From NCBI GenBank assembly GCA_009914755.4, contig CP086569.2:20032001-20096000 (forward strand): a stretch of 64,000 nucleotides of DNA, read 5' to 3'. Origin of the DNA: the human T2T-CHM13v2.0 reference genome, Homo sapiens. Positions 43,990-57,800 of the stretch are shown one piece after another; positions within the stretch are counted from its first letter, which is position 1, and the number at the start of each line of letters is the position of its first letter. The notes under the pieces are model-generated. The model was not told where the DNA came from. It saw only the letters and a list, made by a program, of their open reading frames with translations, and made no database searches. The position numbers and the translations under genes were made by a program.

Positions 43990-44208
43990 TCACAACAAAG
44001 TCACTGGAATAGTCAGAGGTCTTTGAGTCAGAGCAACTTCATCTTGAAGAGTAACAGGGTAAAATGAGGCTGAGATCTACTGGGTTGTATTCTCTGGAGG
44101 CTAGGCATTCTAAGACACAAAATGAGATAGGAGGTCCCCACAAGATATGGGTCATAAAGTCCATTCTGATAAAACAGTTTGCAGTAAAAAAGCCGGCCAA
44201 AACCCACG
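43990..44208 (+). mobile_element. Left portion of an LTR-like element (same family as 20059-21800), truncated by the provirus B insertion
   Basis: ...CATCTTGAAGAGTAACAGGGTAAAATGAGGCTGAGATCTACTGGGTTGTATTCTCTGGAGGCTAGGCATTCTAAGACACAAAATGAGATAGGAGGTCC... aligns with 20150-20365. Confidence 0.6.
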
Positions 44209-44560
44209 TATTGGAACAACTAAGTTCCTCTTCAAAGACTCAACTTTCTGGTAATAAATTGTAAACTAATCCTACCCTGTATTCTTTCAAAAATCATGTG
44301 TTTACCCTGTCTGGAAAAATTTAAGTCTTAGCTAATTGGGATCAGCTTAGATTGTGTGGCCTAAACCCAGTCAATAGGGGAAGGACACAGAAACATGAAC
44401 TGTGTTAGGAATATAAACCCTTTCTGTCCTTTGTTTGGTGTGCTTTTGTGATTGCATCATGTGTAAGCAGCACCCTTCTGGAGAAGTAAATTTGCCTTAC
44501 TTAGAAATTTTCTGTCTAAGTATGGGTTTCTTTTGGCTATGCTGAGCCTTTGTTTCCAAC
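44209..44560 (+). mobile_element. 5' LTR of provirus B
   Basis: Direct repeat of 56658-57002; followed by a degenerate PBS-like TTTAGGGAATCATCTGGGAT. Confidence 0.75.
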
Positions 44561-45499
44561 AAATTTAGGGAATCATCTGGGATATTATTCTCCTTCAAAA
44601 GTCACTATCAATTATCGTTCATGTGGAGATGCATTTTACTACTTCATTATGGTGGCCCGGGAGCAGAGGATTGAGTCTGGCCCAAAGTGATGAATAAATC
44701 TGGACTCTCAGCAATGTGGACATTAGGGAGAATACTTAATTAAGAATTCCACAGTTACTAGGTAACTCTGTGCACAGACCAAAGTAATAAATGTCACTAT
44801 TGGGGTGACAATCTATTCCTTGGTGGTTGGGTCTCTGGAGGTTGAAAGTATGTGAGTGAGATGCAACATTGGGTGTGAAGTGAGTGTGGTGTTTGGACTT
44901 GGTTCTGTTGTCATCTCATACAGCTTAGGGCAGTTTCCCAATTGGGAGATTATACCAACCTGCCATTGCTAACTTCAGCCTAAAATTCCTTTGTGGGAAT
45001 GAGGGAAGTGGACAATAAGGATGAAGTGAGTGCTCACAAGAGTGCAAAAAACCTCCAGGAGGAAAAGTGGAGGTTGAGCCACTAGGACATGTGAGTGGAA
45101 GAAATCACTAATATGAGAGATTGAACCTCACAGAAGAGCAAGAAATCTGTAACACGAGAGATTGAGTCTCATGGGAGTGCAAGAATTCTATAATATGAGA
45201 GATTGAGTCTCCCCAACCTCCAGAATTGGAAAAACTCCAAGTAAGACAGGAATTCTAAGATACAAAGCAAATAATCAAATTCCCCCTGACAGTCCCCTAG
45301 GCCTTATGTTAAAATACTAGAAGGATAATGAAAGGACCAAACACAAGAAAAGACAGCAAATTAAAGTACTGCTGTTTTATTTGGACTAAGGAACCCATCC
45401 CACCTACCTGTCTGCCCCAGGCTGAACACTCCCTCCCTGATGTAACACTGCCCCATGAACCTTGACACCCCCACTGGCCAACAGGAAATAGAACTATAC

Positions 45500-46550
45500 C
45501 AAAAGGATACTCAAAATTTTTCTTTCCCCTCTTCCTCAAAGAAGAATACCACAACCTTTTTTCATTAAGTGAAGTACCACTAGGAGGAGGTGATAATGGC
45601 TTTGTAAATGCCTCCTTAACTAGTTCAGAGTTTAGTTTAGTTTAGAAATCTAAAAAAAAAAAGGAGGGGACTCAAATATCTGTTAGATGACCCTTTTGGA
45701 ATTGCAGATCAAATTGACCAATTTCTGTGGTCAAGACTGTACATGTGGGCTGACTTAATGTCTATTCTAGGTATTCTCTTATCAGGAGAGGAAAAAAAAA
45801 CATTACCCACATTGCCACTATGCTAATCTGGGAGTGCTAGTGTCCCCTGGTCAAAATATCCTTACAGTGGGGCATAAACTCCCAGCCCAGCATCCTCAAT
45901 GGAATAATAACAATGCAGACCAGTGAGAAAACATAAGAGATCTCAGAAATATGATAATTAAAGGGATTTGGGAGTCAGTTCCTCAAACCCAAATTATTTC
46001 TCAAGCACTTAATGTATAGCAAGGAAAACATGAAGGGCCCATGGATGACTTAAACAGACTTAAGAAACAGATAAAAATGATATGCAAGTTTGGACATAGA
46101 AAATCCACTGGGTCAAGGGATGTAGAAACTCCTCTTTGTCCCCAATAGCTGTCTGGATATTACAAAGAAATTACTAAAAATAGAAAATTAAAAAGACCAT
46201 TCCATAGAGAAACTTTTAAAAGAGGCCCAAAAGCTATATATATGGAGGGATGAGGTAAGTCAAAAGCAAAAGGCAAAAATTATGCTGTCCACCCTACAAC
46301 ATTCAACAGAGAACACTTCAACAGGGAGCACAGGAAAATAGAACTTGTAAACCTTCTAAGTAACCAACTGCCAGACCCTATACAGGAAGCCAAGGTATGA
46401 AACCCAAGAGTCAGGAAACAGGAAGGGGAAAATAAAAAAACAGACAATTCAGGTTTGGAAAAACCAGGACACTTTAAAAGCAAATGTTCCAAATGAAAAA
46501 GAAGAAATAAGGCCCTTTCATAAAAGGGCCAGGACATATATATCCATCCC
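45500..46550 (+). pseudogene. gag remnant of provirus B
   Basis: Homologous to provirus A gag (3224-3900 region); degenerate. Confidence 0.6.
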
Positions 46551-56640: not shown

Positions 56641-56657
56641 AACAGAAGAAGGGAAAT

Positions 56658-57002
56658 TGTTGGGACAACTAAGTTCCTCTTCAAAGTCTCAGCTTTCTGG
56701 TCATAAATTGTAAACCAATCCTACCCCTCCTTTTCTTTCAAAAACCATGCATTTACCCTATTTGGAAAAGTTTAAGTCTTAGCCAATCAGGATCACCTTA
56801 GATTATGTGGTCCAACCCCAGCCAATAGGAGAAGGACACAGAAACAGAAACTGCATTACAAATAAAAAAACCCTTCTCTCCGTTGTTTGGTGTGCTTTTG
56901 CAATTGCATCAGGTGCAGACTTTAGAAGTAAAATTGCCTTGCTGAGAAATTTTCTTTCTAAGCATGGATTTCTTTTGGCTATGCTGAGCACTTGTTTTCA
57001 AC
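56658..57002 (+). mobile_element. 3' LTR of provirus B
   Basis: Preceded by the purine-rich AACAGAAGAAGGGAAATTG. Direct repeat of 44209-44560. Confidence 0.75.
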
Positions 57003-57800
57003 ATACCAAAACCAAGATGGTGTTGACAATGACCTTGGGTCCTTCTCACTGCTACACTTCCAACAGTATCATGACAGTTTACAATGTCAATGTCATGGCA
57101 ATGTCAGAAATTTACTCTATATCAAACCAGAAAATCTGAGACAGGTCTCAGTTAATTTAGAAAGTTTATATTGCCAAGGTTTTGCCTGTGACACAGCCTC
57201 AGGAAGTCCTGATGACATGTGCCCAAGGTAGCCAAAGGACAGCTTGATTTTATACATTTTAGGAAGACAGGAGATATCAGTCAGTACATGTAAAAAGTAC
57301 ATTGGTTCAGTCTGGAAAGGTGTGGCATCATGAAGCAAGGGCAGGAAGACTTCAAGCATGGAGGGAGCTTTCAGGTCTTGGATAGATGAGACAAAAACAA
57401 TTGCATTATTTTGACTTTCTCATTAGCTGTTCCAAAGGAGACAATCAGATATGTATCTGTCTTAGTGAACAGAATAACTTTAAATAGACTGAGATGTGGG
57501 TTTGCCCTAAGCAGTTTCCAGCTTGACTTTTTCTTAGTGATTTTGGGGGTCCAAGATAATTTCTTTTCACACCTACATGGTCTCAAAAGGGAAGGAATGA
57601 GTAATCCATCCCTTGTTTAGCATATCATCAAGAAATAATGATAAAAATGGGAAATCAGCAGGCCTTGGCACTGCTCTGTCTATGGAGTAGCCAATCTTTT
57701 ATTCTATTACTTTCTTAATAAACTTACTTTGCTTTGCACAATGGATTCACCCTGAATTCTTTATTGTACAAGATCCAAGAACCCTCCTTTGGGGCCTTGA
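57003..57800 (+). mobile_element. Right portion of the LTR-like element disrupted by provirus B (paralogue of 20365-21800)
   Basis: ACCAAAACCAAGATGGTG at the junction matches 20352-20365 ACCAAAACCAAGATGTT. 57655-57790 matches 21640-21790. Confidence 0.55.

What the first reader, a model, noticed from the sequence alone, without database searches (positions are those of the whole stretch)
43990..57800. Provirus B sits inside an older LTR-like element; an undisrupted paralogue in the same window (20059-21800) acts as an 'empty site' and suggests a 4-bp TSD
Left flank 44030-44208 aligns to 20150-20365 and right flank 57003-57790 aligns to 20352-21790. In the paralogue the junction reads GAAAACCCACCAAAACCAAGATG. 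At provirus B the 5' flank ends ...CCAAAACCCACG(TA) and the 3' flank begins (T)ACCAAAACCAAGATGG. That is consistent with insertion at ...AAAACCCACC^AAAACC with a short (about 4 bp, CACC-like) duplication, as expected for gammaretroviral integrase. This gives a three-layer chronology: the old LTR-like element is older than provirus B, which is older than the L1 inside it.
Basis: seen in the sequence. Interest (0 to 1): 0.5.

Follow-up and report, generated by a model that had tools for sequence, protein, structure and literature searches.

The report
Retrovirus relic nested in older LTR

Summary
The core of the finding holds. Provirus B (44209-57003) splits a single copy of a 553-bp retroviral LTR family. 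I rebuilt that family from 57 independent copies found in metagenome contigs.

- **Colinearity.** Removing the provirus and one later insertion leaves flanks that align end to end with the family consensus (84% identity, 3 gap events).
- **Target-site duplication.** The left flank ends CACG and the right flank begins TACC. The uninterrupted copies read CACC, so the flanks overlap by exactly 4 bp.
- **Type of provirus.** B is gammaretrovirus-like: Gag_p30, MLV-type RNase H and integrase C-terminal domain, and a CX6CC envelope motif. Its relative, provirus A in the same window, has a perfect 4-bp duplication (TAAG).
- **L1.** A full-length L1 (46992-53158) with a perfect 9-bp duplication interrupts B.
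- **Chronology.** Old LTR, then provirus B, then L1 follows from the nesting and agrees with the divergence values.

- The old element is 553 bp, not 1.35 kb.
- The "undisrupted" paralogue (20153-21787) carries a 636-bp solo LTR as well as the MaLR.
- The right flank of B holds a further 450-bp solo LTR (57122-57571).

Nothing here is novel.

The parts
44010..44208 (+). Old solo LTR, 5' piece (family consensus positions 1-198). It starts TAGTCAGAGG against the family's TGTCAGAGG.
   Evidence: Up to 84.5% identity to independent family copies, with coverage beginning at about 44005-44012. End-to-end alignment to the consensus.
44205..44208 (+). 5' copy of provirus B's target-site duplication, CACG (ancestral CACC).
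   Evidence: paralogue and 57 family copies read CACC.
44209..44561 (+). Provirus B 5' LTR (353 bp). It begins TA, a mutated TG, and ends CA.
   Evidence: LTR-LTR alignment, (84.5% identity, K2P 0.176).
44566..44583 (+). Degraded primer binding site TAGGGAATCATCTGGGAT. It matches 13 of 18 positions of the tRNA-Pro site TGGGGGCTCGTCCGGGAT, which I quote from memory.
   Evidence: Provirus A has TGGGGGCCCATCCAAGAT at the same place.
45846..46239 (+). Remnant of gag capsid (Gag_p30), split over two reading frames.
   Evidence: Pfam PF02093, E=4e-4 and 2e-4, on adjacent parts of the profile.
46983..46991 (+). L1 target-site duplication, left copy, TTCCTGTAG.
46992..53158 (+). Full-length, decayed L1 (6.2 kb) inserted in the RNase H region of provirus B.
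   Evidence: Pfam Transposase_22 E=3.9e-44 and endonuclease and RT hits. Human L1 ORF2p in PDB, E=4e-120. 80.8% and 86.8% identity to two other L1s in the window.
53159..53167 (+). L1 target-site duplication, right copy, TTCCTGTAG (perfect match to the left copy).
53241..53474 (+). pol RNase H remnant of provirus B.
   Evidence: Pfam RNase_H 28.7 bits, above the cut-off. Best PDB hits are MLV/XMRV RT-RNase H, E=2e-15.
53893..54678 (+). Integrase remnant: rve core (53893-54162) and MLV-type C-terminal domain (54526-54678).
   Evidence: Pfam PF00665 E=1.4e-3 and PF18697 MLVIN_C E=1.6e-5.
56200..56280 (+). env transmembrane subunit motif ENRITLDIILAKKGGVCVMIRVQCCTF, a gamma-type CX6CC.
   Evidence: Frame translation. 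Best PDB hits are HERV-S71 Env, syncytin-1 and MLV p15E, E=1e-5 to 1e-4.
56640..56657 (+). Polypurine tract AAACAGAAGAAGGGAAAT, immediately before the 3' LTR.
56658..57003 (+). Provirus B 3' LTR (346 bp, TG...CA).
57004..57007 (+). 3' copy of provirus B's target-site duplication, TACC (ancestral CACC).
57004..57121 (+). Old solo LTR, middle piece (consensus positions about 195-310).
   Evidence: Family coverage 57004 to about 57120.
57122..57571 (+). Separate 450-bp solo LTR inserted in the old LTR. Its ends are TC (from TG) and CA. Its 6-bp duplication reads TCTATA (57116-57121) and CCTACA (57572-57577) against the family's CCTATA.
   Evidence: No family coverage at 57124-57563. A second copy lies at 42711-43048 on the minus strand. 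Coordinates.
57572..57822 (+). Old solo LTR, 3' piece, ending ...CTTTCCTTTAACA.
   Evidence: Up to 85.3% identity to family copies over 57572-57822.
20153..21787 (+). Paralogous copy of the old LTR, from a longer subfamily, with the integration site intact at 20340-20361. It is interrupted by a 636-bp solo LTR (20445-21080, perfect CACC duplication at 20441-20444 and 21081-21084) and by a minus-strand MaLR (about 21230-21600).
   Evidence: Family matches on the two sides of the 636-bp insert overlap by 4 bp in subject coordinates (L031: 167-460 and 457-609).
1526..18297 (+). Related provirus A with its flanking duplications. LTRs at 1530 to about 1965 and about 17850 to 18293. Perfect 4-bp duplication TAAG at 1526-1529 and 18294-18297.

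Best explanation
Four or more successive retroelement insertions occurred at one spot in a catarrhine primate genome.

1. A class I endogenous retrovirus with an Arg-type primer binding site, as in the HERV9/HERV-W group, left a 553-bp solo LTR at 44010-57822 in present coordinates.
2. A gammaretrovirus-like virus with a tRNA-Pro-like primer binding site then integrated, in the same orientation, between positions 198 and 199 of that LTR. Its integrase made a 4-bp staggered cut, so CACC was duplicated on both sides of the new provirus. The two copies have since each taken one substitution and now read CACG and TACC.
3. The provirus decayed: it lost protease and RT, acquired frameshifts, and its LTRs diverged to 84.5% identity.
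4. A full-length L1 then inserted by target-primed reverse transcription into the RNase H region, duplicating TTCCTGTAG.
5. Independently, a 450-bp LTR with a 6-bp duplication entered the 3' part of the old LTR. Its order relative to provirus B is not resolved.

**Basis.** Shown here: the colinearity, the 4-bp overlap, the element types and the nesting order. Inferred: the absolute ages and the name of the LTR family.
For: **One split LTR**
- With the insertions removed, the flanks align to the 553-bp consensus over 552 columns at 84.2% identity with 3 gap events.
- The same colinearity holds against individual copies and against the in-window paralogue.

**A real LTR family**
- The junction 22-mer found 57 independent copies in metagenome contigs, presumably primate contaminant DNA.
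- Homology among these copies stops at about -200 and +370 from the junction.
- The ends are TGTCAGAGG...GTAACA, and full-length copies measure 546-554 bp.
- Nine of the 57 loci show the PPT-like shared sequence AAAAGGGAGGGGGGAAA directly upstream. Three of those nine, L013, L017 and L032, appear to be the same genomic locus assembled in different metagenomes.
- Five copies have a downstream TGGCGACCACGAAG-like primer binding site. That sequence is reported for HERV9 (PMC4724089) and assigned to tRNA-Arg (PMC11905727).

**Target-site duplication**
- Provirus B: CACG and TACC against CACC.
- Related provirus A: perfect TAAG on both sides.
- The old LTR family itself also shows 4-bp duplications, for example GAAG in L055.

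**Gamma-like identity of B**
- Pfam Gag_p30, RNase_H, rve and MLVIN_C.
- MLV/XMRV RNase H, E=2e-15.
- Gamma-type TM, with HERV-S71, syncytin-1 and MLV p15E as best hits.
- PPT and TG...CA LTRs.

**L1**
- for identity; perfect 9-bp duplication.

**Divergence agrees with the order**
- Old LTR against consensus: K2P 0.179.
- Provirus B LTR pair: K2P 0.176, or about 0.088 per lineage.
- The L1 is 86.8% identical to another L1 in the window.
Against: - The two copies of the duplication match each other at only 2 of 4 positions. The 4-bp reading therefore rests on alignment to uninterrupted copies, not on the duplication alone.
- All 57 external copies were selected for containing the junction 22-mer. 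They cannot independently prove that CACC is ancestral. Independent support comes only from the paralogue and from the sheer number of exact hits.
- The old LTR copy has no recognisable duplication of its own (GGAA against AAAT).
- The consensus was built from 14 copies that may belong to a different subfamily, which could inflate the value of 0.179.
- No repeat library (Dfam or RepeatMasker) was available, so the family names are unverified.
Confidence: 0.93

Rival explanations
1. The insertion is real but the original duplication was not 4 bp. It was 5 or 6 bp, or absent, and the present 4-bp overlap results from later small indels at the junctions.
For: The two copies differ at 2 of 4 positions. 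Some class I ERVs make 5-bp duplications (general knowledge). The 5' LTR's first dinucleotide is also mutated, from TG to TA, which shows decay right at the junction.
Against: A 4-bp overlap needs no indel at all. Both flanks align to the consensus without a gap up to the LTR edges. The related provirus A has a perfect 4-bp duplication. With about 9% change per site since integration, 2 changes in 8 bases is unremarkable (binomial P of about 0.15, my calculation).
Confidence: 0.04
2. The two flanks come from two different copies of the old LTR, for example the two LTRs of an old provirus. They were brought next to provirus B by recombination or rearrangement, not by insertion into one LTR.
For: The old LTR copy lacks a recognisable duplication of its own. 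The region is packed with ERVs and L1s, which could promote rearrangement.
Against: The pieces are exactly complementary (consensus 1-198 and 195-553), in the same orientation, with a 4-bp overlap of the size expected for this integrase. Neither PPT-like nor PBS-like internal sequence of the old family adjoins them. Rearrangement would not be expected to give that precise overlap.
Confidence: 0.02
3. The similarity between the flanks and 20153-21787 is chance or low-complexity similarity, and there is no older element.
Against: E-values are 1e-18 to 1e-35. Both window copies match 57 independent copies of a discrete 553-bp family at 80-85% identity, with sharp shared ends.
Confidence: 0.005

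Closest known systems
Nested LTR-retroelement insertions, in which a provirus sits inside a solo LTR, as routinely resolved by RepeatMasker/Dfam annotation of primate genomes
   Same: A younger element splits an older one. The split halves are colinear with the family consensus. A target-site duplication is made of the host element's own sequence. The relative age follows from the nesting.
   Different: Nothing differs in kind.
Gammaretroviral (MLV-type) integration, with a 4-bp target-site duplication
   Same: Provirus B has Gag_p30, MLV-like RNase H, the MLV integrase C-terminal domain and a CX6CC envelope TM. It also has a 4-bp overlap of its flanks, and its relative provirus A has a perfect 4-bp duplication.
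   Different: It is an ancient, defective endogenous copy. Protease and RT are deleted and no reading frame is intact. Its Repbase/Dfam family name was not determined.
LTRs of the HERV9/HERV-W group of class I ERVs, such as LTR12-type LTRs
   Same: Proviral copies of the 553-bp family carry the TGGCGACCACGAAG... primer binding site reported for HERV9 (PMC4724089). They also have TG...CA ends and 4-bp duplications. From memory, the sequence resembles the 3' part of LTR12-type LTRs.
   Different: The family is only 553 bp long and lacks any shared upstream sequence, whereas, from memory, typical LTR12C is about 1.5 kb. The name could not be tested because no repeat library was available.
L1 (L1PA-type) insertion by target-primed reverse transcription
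   Same: Full-length 6.2-kb element with ORF1 and ORF2 remnants. It has an A-rich 3' end, a 9-bp perfect duplication, and an A-rich site next to the duplication.
   Different: The poly(A) tail is almost gone and both reading frames are broken. The subfamily was not determined.

Membership tests
Class I (gammaretrovirus-like) endogenous provirus: provirus B | Two LTRs in direct orientation with TG...CA ends. | tested here: met
   44209-44561 and 56658-57003, 84.5% identity. The 3' LTR is TG...CA. The 5' LTR is TA...CA, with one substitution.
Class I (gammaretrovirus-like) endogenous provirus: provirus B | Primer binding site just after the 5' LTR and polypurine tract just before the 3' LTR. | tested here: met
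   The PPT AAACAGAAGAAGGGAAAT abuts the 3' LTR. The PBS-like 18-mer matches 13 of 18 positions of tRNA-Pro, and provirus A matches 14 of 18. The tRNA sequence is from memory, so the tRNA assignment is only a lead.
Class I (gammaretrovirus-like) endogenous provirus: provirus B | Gamma-type gag, pol and env: p30 capsid, MLV-like RNase H and integrase, and CX6CC in the TM subunit. | tested here: met
   Pfam Gag_p30, RNase_H, rve and MLVIN_C. The Gag_p30, rve and MLVIN_C hits are below Pfam's gathering cut-offs, as expected for a decayed copy. PDB best hits are MLV/XMRV RNase H at 2e-15 and gamma-type Env TM at 1e-5. The CX6CC motif lies at 56200-56280. Protease and RT are absent.
Class I (gammaretrovirus-like) endogenous provirus: provirus B | 4-bp target-site duplication. 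| tested here: met
   The flanks overlap by 4 bp in family coordinates: CACG and TACC against CACC. Provirus A has perfect TAAG. The direct match between the two copies at B is only 2 of 4.
Solo LTR of a class I ERV family: the old element | A discrete repeat with TG...CA ends and many dispersed copies. | tested here: met
   57 copies. Shared homology is limited to about 553 bp, TGTCAGAGG...GTAACA.
Solo LTR of a class I ERV family: the old element | Some family copies adjoin retroviral internal sequence, with a PPT upstream and a PBS downstream. | tested here: met
   PPT-like AAAAGGGAGGGGGGAAA lies directly upstream in L012, L013, L014, L018, L031, L052 and L057. A PBS TGGCGACCACGAAG... lies downstream in L008, L012 and L052.
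Solo LTR of a class I ERV family: the old element | The window copy has its own flanking target-site duplication. | tested here: not met
   For the copy at provirus B, GGAA (44006-44009) faces AAAT (57823-57826). For the paralogue, ATAA faces GTAC. At about 18% divergence a 4-bp duplication can be erased, so this weakens but does not exclude solo-LTR status. Other family copies do show 4-bp duplications.
LTR12 / HERV9 LTR (a named Repbase/Dfam family): the old element | A match to the curated consensus in a repeat library. | not testable with these tools
   No Dfam or RepeatMasker was available. The HERV9-type PBS and my memory of the sequence point to this group. The 553-bp length and the lack of shared upstream sequence argue against the long LTR12C form.
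LINE-1: the insert in provirus B | ORF1 and ORF2 (endonuclease and RT) homology. | tested here: met
   Transposase_22 at 3.9e-44, Exo_endo_phos and RVT_1. Human L1 ORF2p at 4e-120.
LINE-1: the insert in provirus B | A-rich 3' end and a flanking target-site duplication of variable length. | tested here: met
   The 3' end ...ATAATAAAAAACG is followed by TTCCTGTAG, and the same 9-mer precedes the 5' end.

The most novel reading that the evidence does not exclude
The 84-bp stretch at 54218-54301 in the integrase region of provirus B has sharp edges. It is an inverted copy, at 88% identity, of part of the 450-bp solo LTR 3 kb downstream (57249-57332). It may have been copied locally by templated break repair or template switching, which would link two layers of the nest. 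The alternative is an independent fragment of another copy of that LTR family.
Probability: 0.3. Interest if true: 0.15.

Novelty: already known. Interest (0 to 1): 0.08.

Why it matters
It matters little beyond annotation. The locus is a clean textbook example. An uninterrupted paralogue, or better a family consensus, can stand in for an empty site and reveal a decayed 4-bp duplication. Nesting then gives a relative chronology: old LTR, then provirus, then L1. The case is useful as a check on the scan and for dating these elements, but it reveals no new mechanism or element type.

Tried and rejected
- **Viral contig scan.** Scanning viral contigs for the junction 23-mer gave 0 hits.
- **Naming by literature search.** Searching full-text papers for six diagnostic sequence strings returned only MMP2 genotyping-primer papers. 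A second search gave the HERV9 PBS link but no LTR name.
- **Internal sequence upstream of L013.** Translating the 7 kb upstream of the LTR in the long contig L013 showed no retroviral reading frames. Only about 60-100 bp next to the LTR is shared among copies.
- **LTR12C from memory.** I first took the old element for the 3' half of LTR12C. I rejected that as a membership claim because no copy shares sequence upstream of the 553-bp unit.
- **Own duplication of the old LTR.** I looked for one at both window copies and found none.
- **Is the paralogue-only or flank-only block part of the old element?** I rejected this. Neither block is covered by any of the 57 family copies. Each has TG...CA-type ends (the 450-bp one begins TC) and its own duplication.
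- **Absolute dating.** I did not attempt more than a rough estimate. K2P 0.176 between the LTRs gives roughly 20-45 million years, depending on the substitution rate assumed. The rates are from general knowledge.
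Full report
**Setting**

The window is catarrhine primate DNA. It holds AluY-like elements (for example 41133-41454) and L1s with primate-type 3' ends. It is dense in retroelements. A self-comparison shows:
- two related proviruses, A with LTRs at about 1530-1965 and 17850-18293, and B;
- three L1s;
- many Alus and MaLR pieces.

**Checking the observation**

- The left flank ends CCAAAACCCACG at 44208, followed by TA.
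- The right flank starts TACCAAAACCAAGATGG at 57004.
- The paralogue reads AAAACCCACCAAAACCAAGATG at 20340-20361. This 22-mer is unique in the window, against 0 expected by chance.

BLAST gave these alignments:
- 44022-44207 aligns to 20164-20348 (75.4% identity, E=5e-31).
- The joined flanks align across the junction without a break (154/202 identities, E=5e-35).
- To the right, the match is colinear but patchy: 57061-57122 with 21081-21136, about 57602-57624 with 21199-21221, and 57672-57794 with 21647-21759.

Large blocks on each side have no counterpart on the other.

**What the old element is**

No repeat library was available. I searched public metagenome contigs for the junction 22-mer and obtained 57 loci, presumably contaminating primate DNA.
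- Homology among these loci is confined to about 200 bp upstream and 370 bp downstream of the junction.
- The copies begin TGTCAGAGGCRTTTGAACC and end ...CCTTTCCGGTAACA.
- Full-length copies measure 546-554 bp, with a longer subfamily of 610-646 bp. A 14-copy consensus is 553 bp.
- Most copies have unrelated flanks and so are solo LTRs.
- Nine of the 57 loci are preceded by a shared purine-rich tract...AAAAGGGAGGGGGGAAA. Three of the nine (L013, L017 and L032) look like one genomic locus assembled in different metagenomes.
- Five copies are followed by TGGCGACCACGAAG-like sequence a few bases after the terminal CA.
- That 18-mer is reported as the HERV9 primer binding site (PMC4724089) and is assigned to tRNA-Arg by GtRNAdb according to PMC11905727.
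- Some solo copies show 4-bp duplications: GAAG on both sides in L055, ?TGT and ATGT in L030, and GTAC and GTGC in L015.

The old element is therefore a genuine class I retroviral LTR family, probably of the HERV9/HERV-W group. From memory it resembles LTR12-type sequence. The 553-bp unit with no shared upstream sequence does not fit the long LTR12C form, so I leave the name open.

**Anatomy at provirus B**

Family copies cover 44005/44012-44207, 57004 to about 57120 and 57572-57822. They cover nothing in between.

The uncovered stretch 57122-57571 is a separate 450-bp LTR:
- Its ends are TC (from TG) and CA.
- It has a second, minus-strand copy at 42711-43048.
- It is flanked by TCTATA and CCTACA, where the old-LTR consensus reads CCTATA once. 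This is a 6-bp duplication.

I joined 44010-44208, 57008-57121 and 57578-57822. That removes the provirus, the 450-bp LTR and one copy of each duplication. The joined sequence aligns to the whole 553-bp consensus at 84.2% identity with 3 gap events. This is the strongest evidence that a single LTR was split.

**Anatomy of the paralogue**

The paralogue (20153-21787) belongs to the longer subfamily, which has an extra 38-bp block...CTTATTATATGCTAATTATAAT.... It is not undisrupted.
- 20445-21080 is a 636-bp TG...CA element with a perfect CACC duplication at 20441-20444 and 21081-21084. Family matches on its two sides overlap by 4 bp in subject coordinates (L031: 167-460 and 457-609).
The MaLR identification rests on my knowledge of THE1/MST termini. 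A related copy lies at 59078-59432.
- The integration site used by provirus B is intact in this copy.

**Provirus B**

- Its LTRs are 44209-44561 and 56658-57003, 84.5% identical over 343 aligned bases, with K2P 0.176.
- A polypurine tract abuts the 3' LTR, and a degraded Pro-like primer binding site follows the 5' LTR.
- Pfam finds Gag_p30 in two frames on adjacent parts of the profile, plus RNase_H, rve and the MLV integrase C-terminal domain.
- The RNase H remnant matches MLV/XMRV RT-RNase H best among solved structures (E=2e-15).
- The envelope TM remnant carries ...LAKKGGVCVMIRVQCCTF. Its best matches are HERV-S71 Env, syncytin-1 and MLV p15E.
- Protease and RT are missing. About 1.35 kb is absent relative to provirus A.

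B is thus a defective gammaretrovirus-like provirus.

**The target-site duplication**

- In consensus coordinates the left flank ends at position 198 (...AAAACCCAC[G]). The right flank begins at position 195 ([T]ACCAAAACC...). The overlap is 4 bp: CACG and TACC against CACC.
- Each flank is anchored by unique context, GCCGGCC... on the left and ...AAGATGG on the right. The local AAAACC repeat therefore creates no ambiguity.
- The two copies match each other at only 2 of 4 positions.
- With about 9% change per site since integration, 2 changes in 8 bases is unremarkable (binomial P of about 0.15, my calculation).
- The related provirus A has a perfect TAAG duplication at 1526-1529 and 18294-18297. 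This gives direct evidence that a closely related provirus was integrated with a 4-bp duplication.
- Four base pairs is the known duplication length for MLV-type integrases (established knowledge).

**The L1 and the chronology**

46992-53158 is a full-length L1:
- ORF1 domain at E=3.9e-44, plus endonuclease and RT hits.
- Human ORF2p at E=4e-120.
- A perfect 9-bp duplication, TTCCTGTAG.

Nesting gives the order old LTR, then provirus B, then L1. Divergence agrees with this order:
- The old LTR is 0.179 from its consensus.
- The LTRs of B imply about 0.088 per lineage.
- The L1 is 86.8% identical to another L1 in the window, and its duplication is undamaged.

The 450-bp LTR is a further layer inside the old LTR, and its order relative to B is unknown. 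A rough age for provirus B is 20-45 million years, depending on the substitution rate assumed. That is an inference.

**Verdict**

- Its description is partly inaccurate in element size, in calling the paralogue undisrupted, and in the extent of the right-hand alignment.
- The structure is an ordinary nested insertion of known kinds of elements.

Noticed in passing
54218-54301 and 57249-57332: An 84-bp stretch with sharp edges in the integrase region of provirus B is an inverted copy, at 88% identity, of part of the 450-bp solo LTR 3 kb downstream. Provirus A is about 120 bp shorter between the flanking anchors (15397-15415 and 15493-15511). This may be a locally templated repair patch, or an unrelated fragment of that LTR family.
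   Followed up: partly
46910-46991 (continuing at 53168-53190) and 53192-53300: The RNase H region of provirus B contains a tandem duplication of about 110 bp at 84% identity.
   Followed up: partly
20445-21080: A 636-bp solo LTR (TGTTGTACCC...GGGAATTACA) lies inside the paralogue and has a perfect 4-bp duplication, CACC. This is the same tetranucleotide as the duplication of provirus B, but at a different position in the old LTR. It has no other copy in the window.
   Followed up: partly
57122-57571 and 42711-43048 (minus strand): These are two copies of a 450-bp LTR family. The copy in the right flank of provirus B has a 6-bp duplication, which suggests a betaretrovirus-like (ERVK-type) origin. 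From memory it resembles MER9-type LTRs, which I did not test.
   Followed up: partly
1526-18297: Provirus A is related to B, with 64-68% identity in the internal regions. Its LTRs are about 81% identical, it has a Pro-like primer binding site (TGGGGGCCCATCCAAGAT) and a perfect TAAG duplication. Its 15.9-kb interior must contain several later insertions.
   Followed up: partly
L012 (LTR at 577-1131 of the extracted segment) and L052 (576-1125): In these metagenome-derived copies the 553-bp LTR has the PPT-like internal sequence upstream and the PBS-like internal sequence downstream. That is an internal-LTR-internal arrangement, which suggests tandem proviruses or a short non-autonomous internal region.
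   Followed up: no
58637-58721: An 85-bp fragment resembles the 3' end of the LTRs of provirus B (78-81% identity to 44481-44562 and 56924-56997). It lies about 800 bp beyond the old LTR.
   Followed up: no
43998-44009 and 57823-57835: The old LTR copy has no recognisable target-site duplication of its own (GGAA against AAAT). The paralogue also has none (ATAA against GTAC).
   Followed up: yes
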